From positions 22,699 to 86,698 of the forward strand of contig CAYJDM010000005.1 of NCBI GenBank assembly GCA_964368945.1: a DNA stretch of 64,000 nt. Reading direction: 5' to 3'. Under the pieces are notes generated by a model. It did not search any database, was not told where the DNA came from, and saw only the letters and a program-made list of their open reading frames with translations. The DNA comes from an uncultured Candidatus Saccharibacteria bacterium. Lineage in GTDB: Bacteria; Patescibacteriota; Minisyncoccia; Phycocordibacterales; CAIZLB01. Shown in pieces: positions 14,955 to 33,043 of the stretch (its first letter is position 1; each line of letters begins with the position of its first letter). A program made the position numbers and the translations under genes.

Positions 14955-15608
14955 TTATCCAATACGCACAGTTTCCCCTTCCCCGACAATATCGACCTTA
15001 CCATCCACGACCTTCAGTGCCGTATGATCATCGGTTGAATATACAGGATGCGCATAATGCGCCTTATTCGACTCGAGGTTTTCCTTTCTCACATGCTGAA
15101 AATAATCCGAATTGAGATGCGGGACGAAAATGAAATCCACATATCCGAAAGGATGCGCCAATTCTTCGAATGACTCCTCCGGATAGACGATGCTCATCAA
15201 ATCATGCGTAAGGAATTGCCCCATCACCATGCTGCCGGCGCTGATCCCCATATAGACTTTTGTTTTGAGCAATTCGGGTAGCATATCTGCAAGCCCTGTA
15301 TCTCGCATTGCTTTTGCGAGGTATTGCTCATTTCCTCCTCCAAAGCAGATCAGATCCGCGGCTTCCAAATGCGGCAGCCACTCTTCTTTTGACAAGCCTG
15401 CAATATCCAGAATATCGATTCGCTTGAACTGTTGCTTTTGGAATTCGACGAGATTATCGATAAGCCATGTCTTGTCATCAACGAATGAATTCGCAGCAGT
15501 TGGGATGAATAAAGCACAGATCTCATTTGCAGGCTTCCCAACGAGTTCGACAACCGCCTTGGCGATATGGTCATTGGTGATTCCGGCTGATGTGAGGAGG
15601 AGTTTCAT
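14955..15608 (-). CDS. Peptidase S51 family (dipeptidase E / cyanophycinase-like)
   Basis: MKLLLTSAG start and GISAGSMVMG nucleophile-elbow region, typical of peptidase E. Confidence 0.7.
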   Translation of the reverse strand: MKLLLTSAGITNDHIAKAVVELVGKPANEICALFIPTAANSFVDDKTWLIDNLVEFQKQQFKRIDILDIAGLSKEEWLPHLEAADLICFGGGNEQYLAKAMRDTGLADMLPELLKTKVYMGISAGSMVMGQFLTHDLMSIVYPEESFEELAHPFGYVDFIFVPHLNSDYFQHVRKENLESNKAHYAHPVYSTDDHTALKVVDGKVDIVGEGETVRIG

Positions 15609-15625
15609 ATTGATATATATTAGGA

Positions 15626-16240
15626 TTAGTTTTGCTTATCTTTTTCCCTTGTCTTTGCTTTCGCTTCTTTTGCCAGGTGTTTCTTGTATTTCAAGTATTC
15701 ATTGAGGCTCATATACGTTTTTGGATCCGCCTTATCGGTAAAAAGGATGCCATCAAGATGATCGAGTTCATGCTGAATGATGCGCGCCAAGAGGCCGCTG
15801 GCATCAAGGGTAAAGGGTATGCCTTTTTCATCAAATGCCTTTACGGTAACCGACTCGGGGCGATTGACCATGGCGAAGAGCTGGCCATTCACGACGCTGC
15901 CGCAGCCCTCCCATCCCTTGATCTTCTTTTTTGAGAAAGATGTGATCTTGGGATTGATGAAAATGCGAAGCGGATCTTCTGTGCCTTTGGCGATCTTTCG
16001 CTTCTTGGTCGTCTTGATTTCCGATATGAAAATGCGAGTGCTTTTGCCGATCTGCGGAGCTGCCATTCCCACGAGATCGTTGTGGCGCATTGAGTCCACG
16101 AGATCGCGAACCGTTGCCACATCTTGAGATGAGAGGTGCTTTGTCTTTTTCTCTATTTTTTTATTGAGAAAAAACTTCACGGGCTTTGCCTTTGCCCTAA
16201 TGACGCTATTGCCTGCTTGGACTGCTTCTTTGATTGCCAT
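15626..16240 (-). CDS. def: Peptide deformylase
   Basis: Motifs GMAAPQIG (motif 1), EGCGS (motif 2), QHELDHLDG (motif 3). Start set at the internal MAIKEAV. Confidence 0.8.
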   Translation of the reverse strand: MAIKEAVQAGNSVIRAKAKPVKFFLNKKIEKKTKHLSSQDVATVRDLVDSMRHNDLVGMAAPQIGKSTRIFISEIKTTKKRKIAKGTEDPLRIFINPKITSFSKKKIKGWEGCGSVVNGQLFAMVNRPESVTVKAFDEKGIPFTLDASGLLARIIQHELDHLDGILFTDKADPKTYMSLNEYLKYKKHLAKEAKAKTREKDKQN

Positions 16241-25715: not shown

Positions 25716-26123
25716 CTAAGCCGCTGGCAACTTGCTAAAGTCCATATGAAAAAATTCCCAGACATGCCCATCGAGATCCTCAATCGCCTTCGTATACATG
25801 AAGACGAGATCCTCTTCCCTATGTAGCTTGCCACCTGCCGCAATTGCTTTTGCATATATGGCATCAACCTCTTCGCGGCTTTCGCATGAGAGAGCGAGCA
25901 GCGCCTCATTCGCAACCTTCGCATCAACCAATTCCTTCTTCGTGAATTGCTTGAACTTTTCTTCCGTTAGGATCATGGCATAGATATGCCCATCATCGAT
26001 GATGAGGCAGGCTCCGTCATCGTTCGAAAACTGCGGATTGAATGAATAGCCCAGTGCCTCAAAGAAAGCCCTGCTTTTCGCCAGGTCCTTGACCGTGAGA
26101 TTGATGAATACTTGTTTTGTCAT
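25716..26123 (-). CDS. VOC-family (glyoxalase/bleomycin-resistance-like) protein
   Basis: Paired beta-alpha-beta-beta-beta module. INLTVKDLAKSRAFFEALGY and C-terminal HVWEFFH. Confidence 0.7.
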   Translation of the reverse strand: MTKQVFINLTVKDLAKSRAFFEALGYSFNPQFSNDDGACLIIDDGHIYAMILTEEKFKQFTKKELVDAKVANEALLALSCESREEVDAIYAKAIAAGGKLHREEDLVFMYTKAIEDLDGHVWEFFHMDFSKLPAA

Positions 26124-26207
26124 GAGGCAATTATAGTATGGCGTGATTGCGGAGTCGAGAATGCCCAGGCTTCAAGATCGGCATGGTCAAGCAGCGCAGA
26201 CTCGATG

Positions 26208-26510
26208 CTACAGTCTAGAGCGAGCGATGATTTCAATTTCACTCTCTTGTAAATTTGGAAATTTTTTCCTGACATCACCCAACCTCAATCGAGCTTCTTT
26301 ACGAGTCAGGTATCTTAGTCCGAATTTAACTATTTCATTTGGATTTGAATCATTTCTATCATCCTGAGGTGAAAATTCTTCCGCATTTGGATATAAAGGT
26401 GTATTAAAAAGCCTTTGGACTCTTTTTATTTCTCGTTGTTGTCTCTTTTCAGGTGTGAAAAAAGCTATGTAAATTAGCAAAATTATTATAATAATCAACG
26501 AATAAATCAT
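26208..26510 (-). CDS. Small (100 aa) membrane-anchored protein in a locally AT-rich segment
   Basis: N-terminal TM (MIYSLIIIIILLIYIAFF) followed by a charged tail. The surrounding ~400 bp is visibly AT-richer than its neighbours. Confidence 0.35.
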   Translation of the reverse strand: MIYSLIIIIILLIYIAFFTPEKRQQREIKRVQRLFNTPLYPNAEEFSPQDDRNDSNPNEIVKFGLRYLTRKEARLRLGDVRKKFPNLQESEIEIIARSRL

Positions 26511-26661
26511 ACTTAAATTTTATCTCTTATTTGCTGGGAGAGAAGGAATCGGACCTTCATTGAGAGCTTCAAAGGCTCCTGTCCTACCATTAGACGATCT
26601 CCCAATAGATTTGTCAATACCCACTCAATCGAGGGGAATATACGACATATCGCCCACTACT

Positions 26662-27687
26662 TTATACAAAAAACTTGAAAAGCGCCAGCTCAATCGGCAT
26701 CACCGAAACGAAAGTCTTGCCCACCTGCTCCCGATGTGTCAGCAATAATTCGAGCATGCGCATGGCATCTCCGACCTGCTTCTTGCTTTTGACGATTCCC
26801 GCCTCGCTGAGCAGGAATGCGCGCAGCTCAGACATGACGAGATCCGCGAAGATCTTCACATCCATATCCGATTCATGGATTTTTTTCAAAATAGAAATTC
26901 CTGCAGCGAGACCCGTCGCATCCGCAGAGACATCCTCACTCCCCGCTCGTGCGCCAAGAACAGCATCCACAAAGCTCGCAACCAAAAGATGCGGCGGCAC
27001 TGAGATTATTTTCTCAACTTCTTCGAGAGAAACTTTCGCAGAATCCTTTCCGCCTGCCTTGGCCATTCCCACGACAGACTGCAGCGTCGACAAGGTATCT
27101 CTATACGAGCCATTTCCGACCATGGCGATTACCTCGGCGGCTTTTTCATCCATTTCTACGCCCTCCTTGCGCGCCACATTCACGACATGATTCTTGAGCG
27201 TCTCAACAGTGGGCTTGGCAAAATGGAATAACTGGCAGCGCGAGATGATGGTCTCAGGAATCTTATGAAGCTCCGTCGTAGCGAGAATGAAAATCACATG
27301 CTTCGGCGGCTCCTCAAGCGTTTTCAAAAAAGCATTGAAAGCGGATTTCGAAAGCATATGGACCTCGTCCAATATATAGACCTTGAATTTCGAATTCAGC
27401 GGCAAAGTATATACCGCCTCATTCAGCGTTCGGATATCCTCCACGCTGGTATTCGATGCCGCATCGATTTCATAAATATCCTCAGGCGCTGTCCCGATAT
27501 TCTGCGCAAATATTCTGGCTATCGTCGTCTTGCCCGTTCCTCTCGATCCCGCGAAAAGATATGCATGCGATGGCTGTGCGGCTGATTCCACCTTCTTTAC
27601 TTCTGCTTCGAGGATATTGACGATATGGCTCTGACCGACGACTTCGCTGAATTGCGCCGGACGATATTTGCGGTATAGGGATGACAT
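26662..27687 (-). CDS. dnaX: DNA polymerase III subunit gamma/tau (short form, lacks the Zn module)
   Basis: YRKYRPAQFSEVVGQ, Walker A GSRGTGKTTIAR, FKVYILDEVHML, SRC sensor. Confidence 0.8.
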   Translation of the reverse strand: MSSLYRKYRPAQFSEVVGQSHIVNILEAEVKKVESAAQPSHAYLFAGSRGTGKTTIARIFAQNIGTAPEDIYEIDAASNTSVEDIRTLNEAVYTLPLNSKFKVYILDEVHMLSKSAFNAFLKTLEEPPKHVIFILATTELHKIPETIISRCQLFHFAKPTVETLKNHVVNVARKEGVEMDEKAAEVIAMVGNGSYRDTLSTLQSVVGMAKAGGKDSAKVSLEEVEKIISVPPHLLVASFVDAVLGARAGSEDVSADATGLAAGISILKKIHESDMDVKIFADLVMSELRAFLLSEAGIVKSKKQVGDAMRMLELLLTHREQVGKTFVSVMPIELALFKFFV

Positions 27688-27760: not shown

Positions 27761-27792
27761 CTAGCGACGAAGCGCAATCGCCTTGCGCGATA

Positions 27793-28287
27793 TCAGCAGC
27801 ATTCGCATGGAACCAAATGACATTTGGTGCAACGGGGCTTCTTGCGTGGGCGAAGCTCATCGTTCGGAATCATGGCGTCTCGTGCCGCATTCAGGAACTC
27901 GGCGACTGTCATGCCGCCTTCCATGGATGCATCTTCCTCCAGATCATCTAGACAGGCAAACACGGTTCGCCAGCCTCCCTTGTCGAGCCTCACGGCCCGA
28001 AATCCCGGCAGGCAGATCATCTGCCAGTAATCTCCGAGGTCAGTGGATGCCTCGGCCTGAATCGGCTTGAAAGCATGAGCATAGATCAGACAATGATCCC
28101 GCACCGTTGACGATCCGCCCAAGATCCGAAAGAGGCCTGCGGCCAGTTCCTTTATCGTGTCTTCAGGCTTGAATAATCGCGCGATACGCGGATGGATTTC
28201 GCCTATCAATTCCCGATCTGTCAGGAAAGCGGCTTCTGCGACTGGTGTTGGTGTTGGCATGGTTCGAGTATCGCCCTCGCCCATCAT
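27793..28287 (-). CDS. Island gene C: hypothetical protein with C-terminal CxxCx4CxCC zinc-knuckle-like motif; paralog of gene B
   Basis: ORF with ATG-ATG start. C-terminus PRCTKCHLVPCECC. Shares the GW..FAC block (RLDKGGWRTVFAC) with gene B (RIKNSGWMQLFAC). Confidence 0.5.
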   Translation of the reverse strand: MMGEGDTRTMPTPTPVAEAAFLTDRELIGEIHPRIARLFKPEDTIKELAAGLFRILGGSSTVRDHCLIYAHAFKPIQAEASTDLGDYWQMICLPGFRAVRLDKGGWRTVFACLDDLEEDASMEGGMTVAEFLNAARDAMIPNDELRPRKKPRCTKCHLVPCECC

Positions 28288-28373
28288 GGACAAGAACTTG
28301 TTTTGGCGATATGCGGATCAGCGATTCGCTGCCATATGCGCAGCACGAATCCCTATCCCGCATATCGCCAAAA
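28266..28373. repeat. Regulatory repeat element copy 1: half-site TATCGCCCT, then inverted repeat TTTTGGCGATATGCGG ... CCGCATATCGCCAAAA (41-nt spacer containing the palindrome CAGCGA-T-TCGCTG)
   Basis: Seen directly. 16-bp perfect inverted repeat at 28301-28316 / 28358-28373, plus an upstream degenerate half-site at 28267-28277. Confidence 0.6.
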
Positions 28374-28447
28374 CCAAGCCGGATCAAAGGGCTATTGTTC
28401 TAAAGACACAATACACCATCGCTGCAAGCCGAGTCAAAAAATGCGCG

Positions 28448-28480
28448 CCGTCCCCACTCGGGGATCGGCGCGCATACTGC
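28448..28480 (-). terminator. Intrinsic terminator after island gene B
   Basis: GCGCGCCGTCCCC actc GGGGA(T)CGGCGCGC, a 13-bp stem with one bulge. Followed on the minus strand by a U-run. Confidence 0.55.
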
Positions 28481-28502
28481 GCATGCTTGCGAACGGCCAT
28501 CT

Positions 28503-28934
28503 TCAGGCCATGGCTTCCTCGACTTGCTTAGGAGCGAATTGAGGAAACGCCCCATAGATATCGCTGAGCGCGATCGTCTCATTCGATCCCCATGAATTCG
28601 TGATATTCCGATTTCTACATGCAAACAGCTGCATCCAGCCGCTATTTTTGATGCGGCGCATGTCCTCAATGGCGACGGGCATCCCGATGAGACCCCGTCG
28701 GATCGTTGAGGCGCTTGCGCCCTTGTTCGGAACATACAGTTCGTTGAAATACACCTTGACCGAAATCAGATCGCCGCCGTCATTCCTCATCACTGCCATG
28801 ACCAGCCCATCAGCAATCCGCTCCAGCGAGGAATTATGGCTTTTTGCAGCCGACGGAAGCACCAGATCCTTCATGATCGCGGCAATAATTTCAAGTGAGA
28901 CTCCGAGAGAGCTGAGTATTTCTTCTTTGTTCAT
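28503..28934 (-). CDS. Island gene B: hypothetical protein, paralog of gene C (no Cys knuckle)
   Basis: Start at the ATG (MNKEEILSSLG). The longer ORF-track start at 29039 would read through the regulatory repeat. Conserved block MRRIKNSGWMQLFAC. Confidence 0.45.
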   Translation of the reverse strand: MNKEEILSSLGVSLEIIAAIMKDLVLPSAAKSHNSSLERIADGLVMAVMRNDGGDLISVKVYFNELYVPNKGASASTIRRGLIGMPVAIEDMRRIKNSGWMQLFACRNRNITNSWGSNETIALSDIYGAFPQFAPKQVEEAMA

Positions 28935-28938
28935 GCTT

Positions 28939-29055
28939 GGATATCGCCCTTTCCGGTCATGGAAAGAATTTTGATTGTTTTGGCGATATGCGAAGGCTCG
29001 GGCAAGGACAAGGGAAAAAGCAAGGGGCGCCAAGAGCATTCGGATATCGCCAAAA
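28939..29055. repeat. Regulatory repeat element copy 2: half-site GGATATCGCCCT, then inverted repeat TTTTGGCGATATGCG ... CGGATATCGCCAAAA (48-nt spacer)
   Basis: Seen directly. Same architecture and half-site sequence as copy 1, 673 bp away. Confidence 0.6.
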
Positions 29056-29195
29056 CGGCTGAGAGAGCGGAAGGCAATGCAAGTATCACAGAAAGATCAT
29101 TCGTGAAAACTATACAATAGGCGCAAAAACTATGCCACTGTGCAAAACCATCTCTGACGGGCAGCGAAAATCTCGGTCAGACAGACAAAAAAAGC

Positions 29196-29221
29196 GCCGT
29201 CCCTTTCGGGACGGCGCTCGA
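29196..29221 (-). terminator. Intrinsic terminator after island gene A
   Basis: GCGCCGTCCC tttc GGGACGGCGC, a perfect 10-bp stem. Followed on the minus strand by a U-run. Confidence 0.6.
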
Positions 29222-29237
29222 ATTTCGAGCTCATGCC

Positions 29238-30026
29238 TCAGCTCGCGGGCATCGATTCAACGGCCTCTACGCGCGGATGGTATTTTTCGAGTCCGAGTGC
29301 TACGAGCGTGCGACAAGCGCATGGCTTATTTCCGCAAGCCAGGCAGCCTTTTCCATAAAAATGGTCGACGGCTGTCGCAAGATCGATCTCGAGCATCGAG
29401 GAAATGGCGCAAATCCACGTGAATACATCCGCAAGCTCCTGAGCATAGCTATCGGCAATGTCATCCGACGTATTGAGCGGCTGCGTCGCATCGATCTCCA
29501 GCATCGCCACTTCGGACACTTCAGAAAAAAGCCGATTGAGCACGCCTTCGATTCCTGCCGCTTGATTATGCGCGCCATATCTTTGACGCAGCGTCTGCTG
29601 CCACATCGATATGCTCCATTCCAATTGCGCAGGATCGATCACGCTTTCGCATGGATTTTCCGATCGCGCCTCAGAGGCGCATGTGCATGGATCCGAGTTG
29701 CAGTACCCGCATTTGTTCGCAGGAAATTTCCGGCAGAGCGTCTCATTGAAGGGAAAGCCGGCATAGAATCCGTCGATGAAAGCCATCAGCCTCGAAAAGA
29801 GCGAAGCGCATGCCTTTCTCAAGACATGCCGATCTCGCTTCTTGCGAATGCAATCGTGAATATAGCGCACTGCCTTGAGCAGGAATGCGCCACGCTCGAG
29901 ACGGCTCCGCATGAGCAGGGAATTCTTCTTGCCGTATATTTCGGCGAAATGGGCCTGCCATGCATCGATTCCATACGTAGTTTTGTCTGTGGTTTCCGGT
30001 GTCGGTATCGCTGAAGAAGATTTCAT
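29238..30026 (-). CDS. Island gene A: tandem all-alpha MazG-like nucleotide pyrophosphohydrolase-like protein; each half ends in a CxxCx4CxC motif
   Basis: The second half aligns to small MazG/YpjD-type NTP-PPases (LFSEVSEVAMLEI; ELADVFTWICAISSMLEIDLATAVDHFYGK). The first half is a degenerate copy. Cys motifs are CGYCNSDPCTC and CLACGNKPCAC. Alternative TTG start at 30041. Confidence 0.55.
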   Translation of the reverse strand: MKSSSAIPTPETTDKTTYGIDAWQAHFAEIYGKKNSLLMRSRLERGAFLLKAVRYIHDCIRKKRDRHVLRKACASLFSRLMAFIDGFYAGFPFNETLCRKFPANKCGYCNSDPCTCASEARSENPCESVIDPAQLEWSISMWQQTLRQRYGAHNQAAGIEGVLNRLFSEVSEVAMLEIDATQPLNTSDDIADSYAQELADVFTWICAISSMLEIDLATAVDHFYGKGCLACGNKPCACRTLVALGLEKYHPRVEAVESMPAS

Positions 30027-30085
30027 TCGCGCTCCTTTCAATGCCTGTATGAGGCGGTTGGATGTTGAGGATGTGTAGTGAAGAA

Positions 30086-31285
30086 CTATTCCTTCAAGAT
30101 CACAGTACCATTAAAATGAGAATCTGTAAATGCCTCAATGATGCGTCGCACATCCGCAGCATTCTCTGCTTTTTCCATCAATTCCATGCGCAATTCCTTG
30201 GCGCCGTCGAATCCGTTTATATATGCCTTGAAGTGCTTTTTCATTATGGCGAAATTCTTGATCGCGCCGAGATGCTTTTCGAATAGCTCAGTGTGGCGGA
30301 TTGCCATCTGCAAACGCTCTTCGATTGTCGGATTATGCGCGGCTGCTGATGACCAGTCGGCATTTTCGCCGGCCTTCTGTTCGTCATTGCCTTTTTTAAT
30401 ATAAAAATTATTCAAACCGCTCCATAGCCAAGGATTGCCGAATAGCGCGCGCCCAAGCATGGCTCCATCGGCTCCCTGCTCCGCCGCTTTCTCCAAACCA
30501 TCTGGCACAGAAACGATATCTCCATTGCCCATGATGAGCGTGCGGTCGATAGGCGCGAGCTCAGCCTGAATCTGATCGCGGATCGCGACAGCTTCGCCGA
30601 CATGTTCCCATCTCGCAGGCACGAGCGACATTTCCTTGCGCGTTCGCGCATGAATAGTGATCGCGGCTGGATGCGCTTCGAGCAAAGCAGGCAGCCAAGT
30701 CGCCAATTCATTTTTGCCATAGCCGATTCGCGTTTTTACCGATACGGGAATCGGCACGCTTATGCCATCAAATGCATTGCGATCAGATGCGGGAGATTTT
30801 CCATCTTCAAAAGCGCGCTTCGCACCGGCCTGCGCAGCGCGAATGATTTCCTGCGCGCGCTTCGGATTCTTGATCATGCCCGCGCCAGCACCCTGCTTCT
30901 CGATTGATTTGTCAGGGCACCCCATATTGATATCAATGCCATCAAATCCGAGCGTCGCGACGAGATATGCTGCCTGCTCCATATATTCAGGATTCGATCC
31001 GAACAATTGCGCGACGATCGGATGCTCGGTCGGGCCGAACAAAAGATCCGCCATCAGCTTCGCCTTCCCTTCCGGAGTAGCGCGCACGATGCCGTCGGCA
31101 GAAACGAATTCCGTCCACATCATATCCGGATTGCCGCATTCGGCGATCAATGTTCGAAAAGCCACATCCGTAACATCCGCCATCGGCGCAAGGACGCTGA
31201 GCGGACGGCCAGGTCGAATAACCTCGCCAGTCGCGATGTCTTTGCCATCGATGATTTCAGTTTTTAGCTTTTGCCAGACATGCAT
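30086..31285 (-). CDS. dus: tRNA-dihydrouridine synthase (Dus family)
   Basis: SVLAPMADVTDVAFR, TIM-barrel FMN motifs, and the catalytic Cys region (GIDINMGCP). Start set at the internal ATG (MHVWQK). Confidence 0.8.
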   Translation of the reverse strand: MHVWQKLKTEIIDGKDIATGEVIRPGRPLSVLAPMADVTDVAFRTLIAECGNPDMMWTEFVSADGIVRATPEGKAKLMADLLFGPTEHPIVAQLFGSNPEYMEQAAYLVATLGFDGIDINMGCPDKSIEKQGAGAGMIKNPKRAQEIIRAAQAGAKRAFEDGKSPASDRNAFDGISVPIPVSVKTRIGYGKNELATWLPALLEAHPAAITIHARTRKEMSLVPARWEHVGEAVAIRDQIQAELAPIDRTLIMGNGDIVSVPDGLEKAAEQGADGAMLGRALFGNPWLWSGLNNFYIKKGNDEQKAGENADWSSAAAHNPTIEERLQMAIRHTELFEKHLGAIKNFAIMKKHFKAYINGFDGAKELRMELMEKAENAADVRRIIEAFTDSHFNGTVILKE

Positions 31286-31351
31286 ACTATATGTATAAAA
31301 CCCTCCGCCTTTTTCAATCACAATACCAAACGATCGCAGGATTGTATATAA

Positions 31352-31495
31352 AAAAATGTGACCCGTCCCCCACAGGGTGAGGACGGGTCGTGCTGGTCGA
31401 TGCATGGGGCTACGGATTTTCGCTCAGGCTTGATGCCGTCGCTAAGTCTATTCAATTCGCAGCCGGCCATGTCCTTTGGACATTGTCGGCAGCAC
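31352..31495 (-). ncRNA. Candidate ~140-nt small RNA or attenuator leader upstream of dus (promoter to terminator)
   Basis: Minus-strand near-consensus promoter TTGACT-16-TATAAT (plus-strand coordinates 31524-31529 / 31502-31507). It is followed ~110 nt later by hairpin GACCCGTCC...GGACGGGTC (31360-31389) plus a U7 tract. No ORF fits inside. Confidence 0.35.
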
Positions 31496-31636: not shown

Positions 31637-33043
31637 ATGGCAAGCAAACCAAACCAGACAAAAGCACCAGCGACGAAGGCTCCCGCAGCGAAGGCGTCGG
31701 CGAAAGCCGCACCAGTAGCCGGACTTTCCCCTATCAAGACAATCATGGGCCGAGAAATTCTCGACTCGCGAGGAAATCCGACTGTGGAAGTCGATGTCAC
31801 TCTCCGCGACGGCTCATTCGGACGAGCCGCTGTTCCATCAGGAGCATCCACAGGATCATATGAAGCGATCGAGCTTCGAGATGGAGACAAGAAGCGATAT
31901 CTCGGAAAGGGCGTGCTCAAGGCCGTAGCGAATGTGAATGGCCCATTGCGAAAGGCATTGGTTGGAAAATCTTTTACGCAGGAAACTCTCGACCGAGCAA
32001 TGATCGCGCTTGATGGAACTCATAACAAGGCAAAGTTCGGAGCGAATGCAATCCTCGGAATCTCAATGGCTTTCTCACACGCAGCTGCGAAGTCAAAGAA
32101 GATGCCTTTGTTCAAATATTTCGCTCAGATCGCAAAGACTGGCAAGCCGATGTCTCTCCCGCTTCCGATGATGAATATCTTGAACGGAGGAAAGCATGCT
32201 GAAAAGTCTACGGACCTTCAGGAATTCATGGTCATGCCTGTCGGCGCGAAGTCTTGGTCTCAGGCTTTGCAGATGGGAGCTGAAGTTTTCCATGCTCTCA
32301 AGAAAATCCTTCACGATCGAGGACTCGGAACTACGACTGGCGATGAAGGAGGATATGCGCCGTCTCTCGGAAATAATGAAAGCGCGCTCAAGGTCATCCT
32401 CGAGGCGATCGAAAAGGCCGGATACAAGCCTGGAAAGGATATCGGAATCGCAATCGATGCCGCTTCGACTGAATTGTACAAGCCAGGCGAAGGAAGCGTT
32501 GCCGGCGAATCAAAGAACGGCACATATGAGCTCGCATCAGAAAAGCGAACTCTTTCTACGCCGGAAATGGTTGCCTTCTATGCAGACTGGCTTACGAAGT
32601 ACCCTATCGTCTCTATCGAGGACGGATTCTCAGAAGACGATTGGCTCGGATATGAAATGCTTACAAAGCAGTGCGGAAAGAAAGTTCAGATCGTCGGAGA
32701 TGATCTTTTCGTAACGAATATCGACCGACTCAAGACTGGCATCGAGCGAAAGGCTGGAAACTCCATCCTCATCAAGCTCAACCAGATCGGTTCAGTCACT
32801 GAGACAATCGACGCTATCAAGATGGCACATAAGGCCGGCATGACAGCAGTCGTCTCTCATCGATCAGGAGAAACAGAGGACACGACAATCTCTCATTTCG
32901 TCGTCGGACTCGGATGCGGACAGATCAAGACCGGCTCACTCTGCCGAACTGATCGAGTCGCGAAGTATAACGAACTCCTCCGAATCGAAGAGCAATTGGG
33001 TGCGAAGGCGGTGTTTGCTGGAAAGGGCGCGTTTAAGGGTTAG
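31637..33043 (+). CDS. eno: Enolase (phosphopyruvate hydratase) with a 25-aa Ala/Lys/Pro-rich N-terminal extension
   Basis: [27 protein letters not shown], and the catalytic motifs ([20 protein letters not shown]). The N-terminal [29 protein letters not shown] precedes the canonical enolase start. Confidence 0.9.

What the first reader, a model, noticed from the sequence alone, without database searches (positions are those of the whole stretch)
28266..29055. Duplicated regulatory element built from GGCGATAT half-sites (16-bp inverted repeats with 41-48 nt spacers) in front of both paralogous island genes
Two copies of the same architecture, 673 bp apart. Each copy has a degenerate half-site ((G/A)(G/T)TATCGCCCT) and then ~25 nt later a 15-16 bp inverted-repeat pair: TTTTGGCGATATGCGG ... 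CCGCATATCGCCAAAA at 28301-28316 / 28358-28373, and TTTTGGCGATATGCG ... CGGATATCGCCAAAA at 28978-28992 / 29041-29055. Copy 1 also has an inner palindrome, CAGCGA-T-TCGCTG. The inverted-repeat arms are near-identical, but the spacers between them are unrelated. This argues for conserved protein-binding sites, such as operators for a dimeric regulator bound at three sites, rather than a simple sequence duplication. A MITE-like element with 16-bp terminal inverted repeats is an alternative reading. The element sits directly 5' of gene C's ATG-ATG start and of gene B's ATG. The ORF-track N-terminal extension of gene B (to 29039) would read through copy 2 and is probably not coding.
Basis: seen in the sequence. 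Interest (0 to 1): 0.7.

Follow-up and report, generated by a model that had tools for sequence, protein, structure and literature searches.

The report
Conserved folded mRNA leader, not operators
The repeated GGCGATAT sites in front of two orphan genes are real, but they most likely form a folded mRNA leader whose middle copy can pair with either of the other two and so expose or hide the ribosome-binding region; they do not look like DNA operators or a mobile element.

Summary
Two copies of the same three-site architecture lie 673 bp apart, in front of minus-strand genes B and C. Both genes are orphans, sitting in a variable slot between dus and a holB-like gene.

The interpretation changes. 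Three other loci from related uncultured bacteria carry the same element. Across these five instances:
- The arm-to-arm distance is 46, 56, 57, 62 and 98 bp, and the spacers are unrelated in sequence. Each spacer is nevertheless self-complementary and extends the arms into a long hairpin (P1).
- P1 and a second small hairpin (P2) show compensatory changes. They also show G·U pairs that exist only on the gene's sense strand.
- Promoter-like hexamers lie upstream of the element.
- The third GGCGATA(T/C) site is conserved in different reading frames. It sits 6-7 nt before the ATG.
- If the 5' arm is made unavailable, every instance refolds so that the 3' arm pairs with the third site, stacked on P2. 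This buries positions -20 to -5.

Best reading: a lineage-specific 5'-leader RNA built as anti-sequestor / sequestor / RBS-proximal site. What triggers the refolding is unknown.

A MITE is rejected: no target-site duplication, and no other copies in genome, metagenome or viral scans. DNA operators remain possible but are poorly supported.

The parts
28408..28437 (-). Promoter-like site for gene C (TTGACT-18-TATTGT). It lies between B's terminator and the element.
   Evidence: The -35 hexamer TTGACT is also present in L004 (TTGACT-18-TAATGT, read) and in L108 (TTGACT-16-TATCGT with TG). This is a consensus match only; no transcription start site is mapped.
28300..28374 (-). Copy 1, hairpin P1 of the gene C leader. 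The 5' arm is 28374->28357 and contains GGCGAUAU. The 3' arm is 28317->28300 and contains AUAUCGCC. The region between them is an irregular apical helix.
   Evidence: The leader folds at -70.4 kcal/mol with z = -6.8 against shuffles.
28276..28294 (-). Copy 1, hairpin P2 (CUUGUCC-AUGAU-GGGCGAG). It contains 3 G·U pairs, and the upstream in-frame AUG-AUG lies in its loop.
   Evidence: The G·U pairs make this hairpin specific to the sense strand (3' module -17.4 kcal/mol sense against -10.8 antisense).
28268..28275 (-). Copy 1, third site GGCGAUAC, 7 nt upstream of the gene C AUG (28260-28258). It is complementary to the 3' arm of P1.
29109..29138 (-). Promoter-like site for gene B (GTGGCA-18-TATAGT), downstream of A's terminator (29219-29192).
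   Evidence: Consensus match only.
28977..29056 (-). Copy 2, hairpin P1 of the gene B leader. The 5' arm is 29056->29039 and the 3' arm is 28994->28977. There is one C·C mismatch, and the inner pairs are A-U where copy 1 has G-C or G·U.
   Evidence: The leader folds at -54.3 kcal/mol with z = -4.6.
28949..28966 (-). Copy 2, hairpin P2 (CUUUCC-AUGACC-GGAAAG).
   Evidence: The relative L004 has CCUUCC...GGAAGG, a U-A to C-G double change.
28941..28948 (-). Copy 2, third site GGCGAUAU, 6 nt upstream of the gene B AUG (28934-28932).
28931..28960 (-). Nine-codon upstream ORF (MTGKGDIQA*). It starts in the P2 loop and its stop overlaps B's start (AUGA). The third site is read here in a different frame or context from gene C and L102.
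   Evidence: Read. It is conserved in L004 with one K->R change. It is not conserved as a separate ORF in the other instances, where the upstream AUG is in frame with the gene.
28503..28934 (-). Gene B (143 aa), an orphan protein regulated by copy 2.
27793..28260 (-). Gene C (155 aa from this ATG; 163 aa as called from 28284). It is a distant paralogue of B and is regulated by copy 1.
28441..28475 (-). Intrinsic-terminator-like hairpin plus U-run ending gene B. It implies that gene C is a separate transcription unit.
   Evidence: (I15), sequence. It is conserved in L004.

Best explanation
The element is a structured 5' leader of the B and C mRNAs, transcribed from the minus strand. It has three interacting segments.

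1. The 5' arm (UUUUGGCGAUAUG...) and the 3' arm (...CAUAUCGCCAAAAC) form the base of a long hairpin, P1. The apical part of P1 is free to vary.
2. Downstream come an A-rich linker and a small hairpin, P2.
3. Abutting P2 is a second copy of GGCGAUA(U/C), 6-7 nt before the AUG.

The 3' arm is complementary to both GGCGAUAU copies, so it can act as a sequestor of the ribosome-binding region. The 5' arm acts as its anti-sequestor.

- With P1 formed, the third site is largely free and the mRNA can be translated.
- If the 5' arm is removed or occupied, the 3' arm pairs with the third site, stacks on P2, and buries positions -20 to -5. Candidate triggers are 5' processing or decay, RNase III cleavage of P1, or a trans-acting RNA or protein.

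This three-way pairing constraint explains why the 8-nt core is nearly invariant while everything around it covaries.

Shown: the conserved architecture, sense-strand-specific pairing, covariation, and the predicted alternative fold in every instance. Inferred: that the region is transcribed, that the switch operates in vivo, and what triggers it.
For: **1. Five instances in three lineages plus one paralogue pair**
- Window C, window B, L004 (C copy, plus a partial B copy), L102 and L108.
- The proteins have diverged to about 13-23% identity between subfamilies. The arms and the third site persist.

**2. P1 is an 18-bp helix in all five**
- One C-G to U-A double change in L102.
- G-C to A-U and G·U to A-U in window B.
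- G-C to G·U at two positions in L102 and L108.
- All eight G·U pairs have the G in the 5' arm of the sense strand. On the other strand they would be mismatches.
- RNAalifold finds 4 pairs with double changes.

**3. The spacers differ but all extend the helix**
- The sequence between the two 11-nt seeds is 38-54 nt in four instances and about 90 nt in L108, and is unrelated in sequence between lineages.
- Each stretch is self-complementary: z = -4.1, -2.9, -1.4 and -2.4 against shuffles (these stretches include the inner 4-5 bp of the arms).
- The extra sequence in L108 is also paired (leader z = -6.1).

**4. P2 keeps its structure with different sequences**
- CUUGUCC/GGGCGAG, CUUUCC/GGAAAG, CCUUCC/GGAAGG, CCAUUC/GAAUGG and CCAUUCC/GGUAUGG.

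**5. The sense strand folds better than the antisense in 4 of 5 instances**
- The advantage is 6.6-20.7 kcal/mol.

**6. Promoter-like hexamers lie between the upstream terminator and the 5' arm**.

**7. The third site is conserved at the nucleotide level in different reading frames**
- GGC-GAU in C and in B's upstream ORF, against GG-CGA-UAU in L102 and L108. Coding does not explain it.

**8. The alternative fold appears in every instance**
- With the 5' arm absent or blocked, the minimum-energy fold in all instances is the 3' arm paired to the third site and stacked on P2.
- Mean probability that the third site is unpaired falls from 0.48-0.69 to 0.02-0.28.

**9. The only change in the sequestor core fits both partners**
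- It is C to U in L102 and L108, which still pairs (as G·U) with both GGCGAUAU copies.

**10. The element is exclusive to these genes**
- A covariance model of the 3' module finds only these instances in 139 kb of the window and related loci. The next hit has E = 0.07.
Against: - No transcript data exist. Promoters are consensus matches only, and the scan did not flag one in L102 or upstream of L004's C copy.
- P1 is 20-34 kcal/mol more stable than the alternative fold. The switch cannot flip by equilibrium and needs an unidentified trigger.
- The alternative helix itself shows no double compensatory change. It is almost invariant, which is uninformative.
- In C-type copies and L108 its terminal pair is lost (GGCGAUAC).
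- The G-rich Shine-Dalgarno-like bases sit 12-13 nt from the AUG, which is unusually far. It is unclear how ribosomes load even in the open state.
- The sample is small: about three independent lineages.
- Window B folds slightly better on the antisense strand.
- A more distant C-like homologue (L110) has no element in the 90 nt available upstream.
Confidence: 0.5

Rival explanations
1. DNA operators. A host or island-encoded DNA-binding protein recognises the three GGCGATAT sites on double-stranded DNA and represses or activates transcription of B and C.
For: - Three copies of one 8-mer per gene, two of them inverted.
- The core is invariant between paralogous copies and between species.
- The sites are over-represented in the window.
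Against: - Site-to-site distances are 46-98 bp, with no fixed spacing or helical phase.
- The sites lie downstream of the promoter-like hexamers rather than over them.
- No regulator or helix-turn-helix gene was found in the loci.
- Gene A is absent from L102 and L108, so it cannot be the factor.
- B and C are too divergent to share a DNA specificity if they were autoregulators.
- The model does not explain the self-complementary spacers, the covariation in P1 and P2, or the strand-specific G·U pairs.
Confidence: 0.17
2. A leader hairpin without a switch. P1 and P2 are real RNA structures that act only as an mRNA stabiliser or as an RNase III processing site. The third GGCGATA copy would be an unrelated ribosome-binding or N-terminal remnant of the ancestral duplication.
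For: - All the evidence for P1 and P2 as RNA helices applies.
- The large energy gap favours P1.
- A regular duplex of 18-29 bp is the kind of substrate RNase III accepts (my own knowledge, not tested here).
Against: - A purely structural hairpin would not need an invariant 8-nt core. The rest of P1 covaries freely.
- The third site keeps the same 7-8 nt in all lineages, in different reading frames, and always directly abuts P2, so that a coaxial alternative helix forms.
Confidence: 0.2
3. A mobile or recombination element: a MITE with 16-bp terminal inverted repeats, an integron attC-like site, or a REP-like repeat.
For: - Terminal inverted repeats with variable interiors.
- Location in a hypervariable gene slot between dus and holB, whose content differs in each relative.
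Against: - There are no flanking direct repeats.
- The interiors are unrelated in sequence and length.
- There are only two copies in 64 kb, and none elsewhere in 139 kb of related loci.
- Scans for the inverted repeat returned only chance matches, coding matches or generic palindromes: 74 genome loci, 18 metagenome loci and 4 viral loci.
- The polarity GTTTTGG...CCAAAAC is the reverse of the attC arrangement RYYYAAC...GTTRRRY (my own knowledge of attC).
- Each gene has its own terminator and promoter-like site.
- The element keeps a fixed position and orientation relative to the start codon.
Confidence: 0.03
4. An antisense-strand function. The reverse complement of P2, followed by the T-rich complement of the A-rich linker, is an intrinsic terminator for an antisense RNA that starts inside the gene and overlaps the start codon.
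For: The terminator scan flags this site on the antisense strand in window B, L004 B and L102.
Against: - It is not flagged for window C or L108.
- P2 of gene C has G·U pairs that become A·C mismatches on the antisense strand (3' module -10.8 antisense against -17.4 sense).
- No antisense promoter was predicted inside B or C near the start.
Confidence: 0.05

Closest known systems
The hok mRNA 5' switch (tac / ucb / mok-SD elements) of type I toxin-antitoxin systems
   Same: There are three cis segments. An upstream element (tac) competes with the Shine-Dalgarno region for one complementary box (ucb, the anti-SD). Which pair forms decides whether the mRNA can be translated, and the shift is driven by RNA processing rather than by a ligand (PMC9841398). 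Here the 5' arm corresponds to tac, the 3' arm to ucb and the third site to the ribosome-binding region.
   Different: - No 3' fold-back (fbi) element was found. The AUAUCGC at C's stop codon is not conserved in L004.
- No antisense Sok-like gene is evident.
- The products are 143-163-aa soluble-looking orphans, not peptides of about 50 aa.
- The default fold here is the open, translatable one.
- There is no sequence relationship.
Sequestor / anti-sequestor expression platforms of translational riboswitches and T-boxes
   Same: A sequestor hairpin covers the ribosome-binding region, and an alternative anti-sequestor hairpin prevents this. The terms are used as in PMC1262725.
   Different: - There is no aptamer or specifier. 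The apical part of P1 is unrelated in sequence and varies about twofold in length.
- There is no Rfam match; the best E-value is 0.43.
- The anti-sequestor helix is far more stable than the sequestor helix.
RNase III-dependent leaders such as lambda cIII or N, and E. coli rnc or pnp (from my own knowledge, not checked in the literature tools)
   Same: A long, nearly perfect duplex in a 5' leader close to the ribosome-binding site. Binding or cleavage of it changes translation or stability.
   Different: Cleavage was not tested here. Those leaders have no repeated 8-mer triad.
MITEs and Correia-like intergenic repeats
   Same: Short inverted-repeat ends in intergenic DNA next to start codons.
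   Different: No target-site duplication, no dispersed copies, non-homologous interiors, and fixed linkage to one gene family.

Membership tests
Palindromic DNA operator of a dimeric regulator | Inverted half-sites at a short, fixed spacing | tested here: not met
   Core-to-core distance is 57, 56, 62, 46 and 98 bp in the five instances.
Palindromic DNA operator of a dimeric regulator | Sites overlap or flank the promoter or transcription start | tested here: inconclusive
   Promoter-like hexamers lie 20-65 nt upstream of the first site. These are predictions only.
Palindromic DNA operator of a dimeric regulator | A cognate DNA-binding regulator is encoded nearby or identifiable | tested here: not met
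   No DNA-binding domain was found in A, B, C or their neighbours. L102 and L108 carry the element with only the downstream orphan gene.
Palindromic DNA operator of a dimeric regulator | Specific protein binding to the double-stranded DNA sites | not testable with these tools
   This needs EMSA or DAP-seq.
MITE | Target-site duplication flanking the terminal inverted repeats | tested here: not met
   The flanks are AACTT/CAAGC for copy 1 and TGATT/GGCTG for copy 2. Neither pair is a direct repeat.
MITE | Many dispersed copies with homologous interiors | tested here: not met
   Only two copies in the window and unrelated interiors. No related copies in genome, metagenome or viral scans, nor in related loci. 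The complete source genome could not be scanned.
Integron attC site | RYYYAAC ... GTTRRRY core sites, at the 3' end of promoterless cassettes, with an intI integrase nearby | tested here: not met
   The ends read GTTTTGG...CCAAAAC, which is the opposite polarity. Each gene has its own terminator and promoter-like site. No integrase was found among the neighbours scanned. The neighbourhood was not scanned exhaustively.
Known riboswitch or leader family (Rfam) | Match to a curated covariance model | tested here: not met
   The best hits are miRNA or snoRNA models at E of 0.43 or worse, far below gathering scores.
Known riboswitch or leader family (Rfam) | A conserved ligand-binding core | tested here: not met
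   The apical part of P1 is unrelated in sequence between lineages and varies from 38 to about 90 nt.
Sequestor / anti-sequestor translational switch (mechanistic class) | A segment complementary to the ribosome-binding region | tested here: met
   AUAUCGC(C/U) in the 3' arm pairs with GGCGAUA(U/C) 6-7 nt before the AUG, for 7-8 bp stacked on P2, in 5 of 5 instances.
Sequestor / anti-sequestor translational switch (mechanistic class) | An upstream segment that competes for the sequestor, giving mutually exclusive folds conserved across homologues | tested here: met
   The 5' arm carries the same GGCGAUAU. P1 is an 18-bp helix with covariation. Both folds are predicted in every instance.
Sequestor / anti-sequestor translational switch (mechanistic class) | A physiological trigger that shifts the balance, with a measurable effect on translation | not testable with these tools
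   The energy gap of 20-34 kcal/mol means that removal or occupation of the 5' arm is required. Nothing identifies the agent.
hok/Sok-type type I toxin-antitoxin locus | A small hydrophobic toxin, an antisense RNA gene and a 3' fold-back element | tested here: not met
   The products are 143-163 aa. No conserved 3' complement of the 5' arm exists (and L004). No antisense promoter was predicted.

The most novel reading that the evidence does not exclude
The leader is a processing- or decay-coupled three-element RNA switch. It works like the hok tac/ucb/SD module but has an independent origin. It gates translation of a hypervariable family of orphan genes, possibly toxin-like or conflict-related, that occupies a gene-turnover hotspot between dus and holB in an uncultured small-genome bacterial lineage. 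The RNA has been kept by selection while the proteins it controls have diverged almost beyond recognition.
Probability: 0.2. Interest if true: 0.6.

Novelty: new member of a known kind. Interest (0 to 1): 0.4.

Why it matters
- It would add an undescribed cis-regulatory leader RNA, with no Rfam counterpart, from a poorly studied uncultured lineage.
- It is a clear natural example of a three-way pairing constraint freezing an 8-nt core while the rest of the structure covaries.
- It marks B, C and their homologues as genes whose expression is tightly gated. That gives a handle on an otherwise uncharacterised, fast-evolving orphan family in a variable chromosomal slot.
- It is a cautionary case for annotation. 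Repeated 'half-sites' with variable spacers can be RNA pairing partners rather than operators.
- Gene callers extended ORFs through the element in three places: window B to 29039, L102 to 198 aa, and C to 163 aa.
- The scope is narrow (one lineage, no experimental system), so the general impact is modest.

Tried and rejected
**Protein searches**
- Searches for A, B and C against 5.8 billion proteins returned only the proteins themselves plus one C homologue.
- Pfam, PHROGs, NCBIfam and PADLOC gave nothing significant for B or C. A has a weak sub-threshold MazG-like hit, E = 0.04.
- A profile search over 1.84 billion representatives found only P0021 and P0023 as new small-protein relatives, apart from the proteins used to build the profile. 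Three further hits, each over 1,100 aa with several matched stretches, were not examined.
- The AlphaFold model of C was unusable (pLDDT 48.6), so no fold search was run.

**Searches for the element elsewhere**
- Inverted-repeat scans returned 74 genome loci, 18 metagenome loci and 4 viral loci. On inspection these were chance matches, conserved coding matches or generic perfect palindromes and fold-back contigs. None had the extended arms or the third site.
- The source genome is not in the genome collection, so a whole-genome copy count was impossible.
- A covariance-model search of the window plus related loci found no extra copies.
- Rfam gave nothing.

**Ideas considered and dropped**
- A conserved upstream ORF as the regulator. 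The 9-codon ORF is separate only in the B copies. It is in frame with the gene in C, L102 and L108.
- A three-way junction enclosing the AUG. The outer helix uses different partners in B and C.
- A hok-like 3' fold-back element. GAUAUCGC at C's stop codon is not conserved in L004.
- A promoter inside the spacer or between the 3' arm and the AUG. The TATAAT in L102's P2 loop is not conserved, and nothing of the kind was flagged.
- A sense-strand terminator or attenuator. No U-run follows P1, P2 or the alternative helix.
Full report
**1. What is there**

The genes around the finding run on the minus strand.
- dus is at 30086-31405.
- Gene A is at 29238-30026 (262 aa).
- Gene B is at 28503-28934 (143 aa).
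- Gene C is at 27793-28260 (155 aa, or 163 aa from the upstream ATG).
- A DNA polymerase III delta'/gamma-tau-like gene ('holB-like') is at 26662-27687.
- Enolase lies on the other strand at 31637-33043.

The window is chromosomal. It carries compact rpoB (1060 aa) and rpoC (1229 aa), dnaG and an AddA-like helicase. G+C in the island is only slightly higher, about 0.54 against 0.48-0.50.

A, B and C each end in an intrinsic-terminator-like hairpin. They therefore look like separate transcription units.

They are far beyond chance. TTTTGGCGATAT occurs exactly four times, all in the element, against 0.56 expected even when one mismatch is allowed.

**2. Reading it on the coding strand**

On the mRNA-sense strand each copy has the following order.
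1. The upstream gene's terminator.
2. A sigma-70-like promoter match: TTGACT-18-TATTGT for C and GTGGCA-18-TATAGT for B.
3. The 5' arm, (G)UUUUGGCGAUAUGCGG.
4. A spacer.
5. The 3' arm, CCGCAUAUCGCCAAAAC.
6. An A-rich linker.
7. A small hairpin, P2.
8. GGCGAUA(U/C).
9. Another 6-7 nt, then the AUG.

The third 'half-site' has the same sense as the 5' arm. It is therefore complementary to the 3' arm.

**3. Relatives**

B, C and A are orphans in a 5.8-billion-protein collection. Related loci were reached in three ways.
- Through the one C homologue: L004.
- Through members of the enolase 90% cluster: L102-L107.
- Through a profile search: P0021 gave L108 and L109, and P0023 gave L110.

The slot between dus and the holB-like gene (bounded in L106 by dus only) is a turnover hotspot.
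- The window has three genes there.
- L102 has two.
- L108 has one.
- L103 and L104 have an unrelated opposite-strand gene.
- L106 has a 391-aa gene.

The element is present in L004, L102 (before gene 2) and L108.
- L004 carries it before C, and its truncated contig end carries part of it before B.
- In L004, everything from the 3' arm to the ATG is identical to the window, although protein C is only 73% identical and the spacer has diverged.
- L102 has GGGUUUUGGCGAUAUGUGGG ... CUACAUAUCGCUAAAAC ... CCAUUC-UAUAAUU-GGAAUGG-GGCGAUAU-UCCAAA-AUG.
- L108 has the same arms, about 90 nt between them, and CCAUUCC-ACAACA-GGUAUGG-GGCGAUAC-UCCAAA-AUG.

A distant C-like homologue (L110) shows no element in the 90 nt available upstream. 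L103-L107 have none.

**4. RNA or DNA?**

Several independent observations favour an RNA structure on the sense strand.

(a) P1 geometry and substitutions
- The arms pair over 18 bp in all five instances.
- Substitutions are one C-G to U-A double change, G-C to A-U and G·U to A-U changes in B, and G-C to G·U changes in L102 and L108.
- All eight G·U pairs have the G in the 5' arm of the sense strand.
- RNAalifold reports four pairs with double changes.

(b) The spacers
- They are unrelated in sequence between lineages and range from 38 to about 90 nt between the two 11-nt seeds.
- Each is self-complementary and extends P1.
- Leader z-scores are -6.8, -4.6, -5.2 and -6.1.

(c) P2 keeps a 6-7-bp helix with five different sequences. 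This includes a U-A to C-G double change between the two nearly identical B leaders.

(d) The sense strand folds 6.6-20.7 kcal/mol better than the antisense in four of five instances. Window B is the exception, by 3.5 kcal/mol.

(e) The distance between the inverted cores is 57, 56, 62, 46 and 98 bp. There is no fixed spacing or helical phase, which a protein bridging DNA sites would normally need.

(f) No regulator gene travels with the element.

**5. Why three identical 8-mers?**

I folded each leader with the 5' arm deleted or constrained to be unpaired.
- In every instance the minimum-energy fold pairs the 3' arm AUAUCGC(C/U) with the third site.
- That helix is coaxially continuous with P2, and the A-rich linker is left as a one-sided loop.
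- Mean probability that the third site is unpaired drops from 0.48-0.69 to 0.02-0.28.
- For positions -20 to -5 it drops from about 0.4 to about 0.1-0.16.

One segment that must pair with two others puts a three-way constraint on the core. This explains why the core is nearly invariant while the flanking pairs covary. The single change in the sequestor core (C to U in L102 and L108) still pairs with G in both partners.

The third site is conserved in different reading frames: GGC-GAU in C and in B's 9-codon upstream ORF, against GG-CGA-UAU in L102 and L108. Coding does not explain it.

**6. Mechanism proposed, and its limits**

The architecture is anti-sequestor (5' arm), sequestor (3' arm) and ribosome-binding-region site. 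This is the logic of the hok mRNA tac/ucb/SD module (PMC9841398) and of translational riboswitch or T-box expression platforms (PMC1262725).

- There is no aptamer, because the apex of P1 is not conserved.
- P1 is 20-34 kcal/mol more stable than the alternative. The default state is therefore open.
- Closure needs the 5' arm to be removed or occupied. Candidates are 5'-end-dependent decay, RNase III cleavage of the long duplex, or a trans-acting RNA or protein. None of these could be tested.
- The Shine-Dalgarno-like Gs are 12-13 nt from the AUG and partly inside P2. Ribosome loading in the open state is also unclear.

I put 0.5 on the full statement: a sense-strand leader RNA with a functional alternative pairing. 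I put about 0.7 on the weaker claim that this is an RNA-level leader structure of some kind.

**7. Rivals**

- DNA operators (0.17). This explains the invariant 8-mers. It does not explain the spacing, the spacer complementarity, the covariation or the strand asymmetry.
- Hairpin only, with no switch (0.2). This does not explain the invariant core or the position of the third site.
- MITE, attC or REP (0.03). There is no target-site duplication. Inverted-repeat scans of 596 Gb of genomes, metagenome contigs and viral contigs gave only chance or generic palindromes. The ends have the wrong polarity for attC.
- Antisense terminator at P2 (0.05). It is flagged in three instances. It is not conserved in C or L108, and it is weakened by A·C mismatches.

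**8. Novelty and score**

No Rfam family matches, and there are no homologous elements outside this lineage. It is a new member of a well-known kind, the structured mRNA leader with mutually exclusive pairings.

Interest is moderate. The three-way constraint is clear, and it is unusual for a leader to outlast its coding sequence. However, the element is confined to orphan genes in an uncultured lineage, and its trigger is unknown.

Noticed in passing
window 27793-30041; L102 7557-8678; L103 2937-3410; L106 1023-2198; L108 1357-1818: The interval between dus and the holB-like gene (bounded in L106 by dus only) is a gene-turnover hotspot. The window has three orphan genes there, L102 two, L108 one, L103/L104 an unrelated 157-aa gene on the opposite strand, and L106 a 391-aa gene.
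   Followed up: partly
window 29238-30026 (gene A) and the 3' end of gene C (about 27796-27840); also P0003 and P0023: A cysteine motif C-x2-C-x3-(P/S)-C-x-C occurs twice in A (CGYCNSDPCTC and CLACGNKPCAC). It also occurs at the C-terminus of C (CTKCHLVPCEC), in P0003 (CTMCHKEPCDC) and in P0023 (CSVCDGKSCGC). A also has a weak MazG-like stretch (Pfam E = 0.04). B lacks the motif.
   Followed up: no
window 29002-29020 (-) and 15640-15658 (+): A 19-nt near-identical match, CTTTTTCCCTTGTC(C/T)TTGC, links the spacer of copy 2 to an intergenic stretch upstream of the gene that starts at 15608. Expected count is 0.02. Its orientation relative to the neighbouring gene is opposite in the two places. 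Unexplained.
   Followed up: partly
window 28931-28960 (-); L004 25-54: A 9-codon upstream ORF (MTGKGDIQA) has its stop overlapping gene B's start (AUGA). It is conserved in L004 with one K->R change. Its AUG sits in the loop of P2. The homologous stretch is in frame with the gene in C, L102 and L108, which is why gene callers gave longer products.
   Followed up: partly
window 28949-28966 (+); L102 8018-8037 (+); L004 37-20 (-): On the antisense strand, P2 plus the complement of the A-rich linker scores as an intrinsic terminator. An antisense RNA ending there would cover the start codon.
   Followed up: partly
window 26533-26604 and 25900-26800: A tRNA-Gln(UUG) lies just downstream of the holB-like gene in a low-G+C stretch (0.39-0.41), with an AT-rich 100-aa ORF at 26208-26510. 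L102 has a tRNA-like sequence at the equivalent place. A lone GGGCGATAT sits at 26647-26655, right after the holB-like stop.
   Followed up: no
window 27783-27790 (-): GAUAUCGC overlaps gene C's stop codon and is complementary to the 5' arm core. That made it a candidate hok-like fold-back element. It is not conserved in L004, so it is probably chance.
   Followed up: yes
L102 8680-8740 (-): The B-like gene 1 of L102 has no P1. It does have a small hairpin (UCCCUC-GGUU-GGGAGG) followed by UGCGAC about 13 nt before its AUG. This resembles P2 plus a degenerate third site and may be a decayed version of the leader.
   Followed up: no
metagenome loci L083, L084, L087, L088; genome loci L043, L058: Several inverted-repeat pattern hits are perfect long palindromes or fold-back contigs (for example L087 and L088, with arms over 40 nt). 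These are generic hairpins or assembly artefacts and are unrelated to the element.
   Followed up: yes
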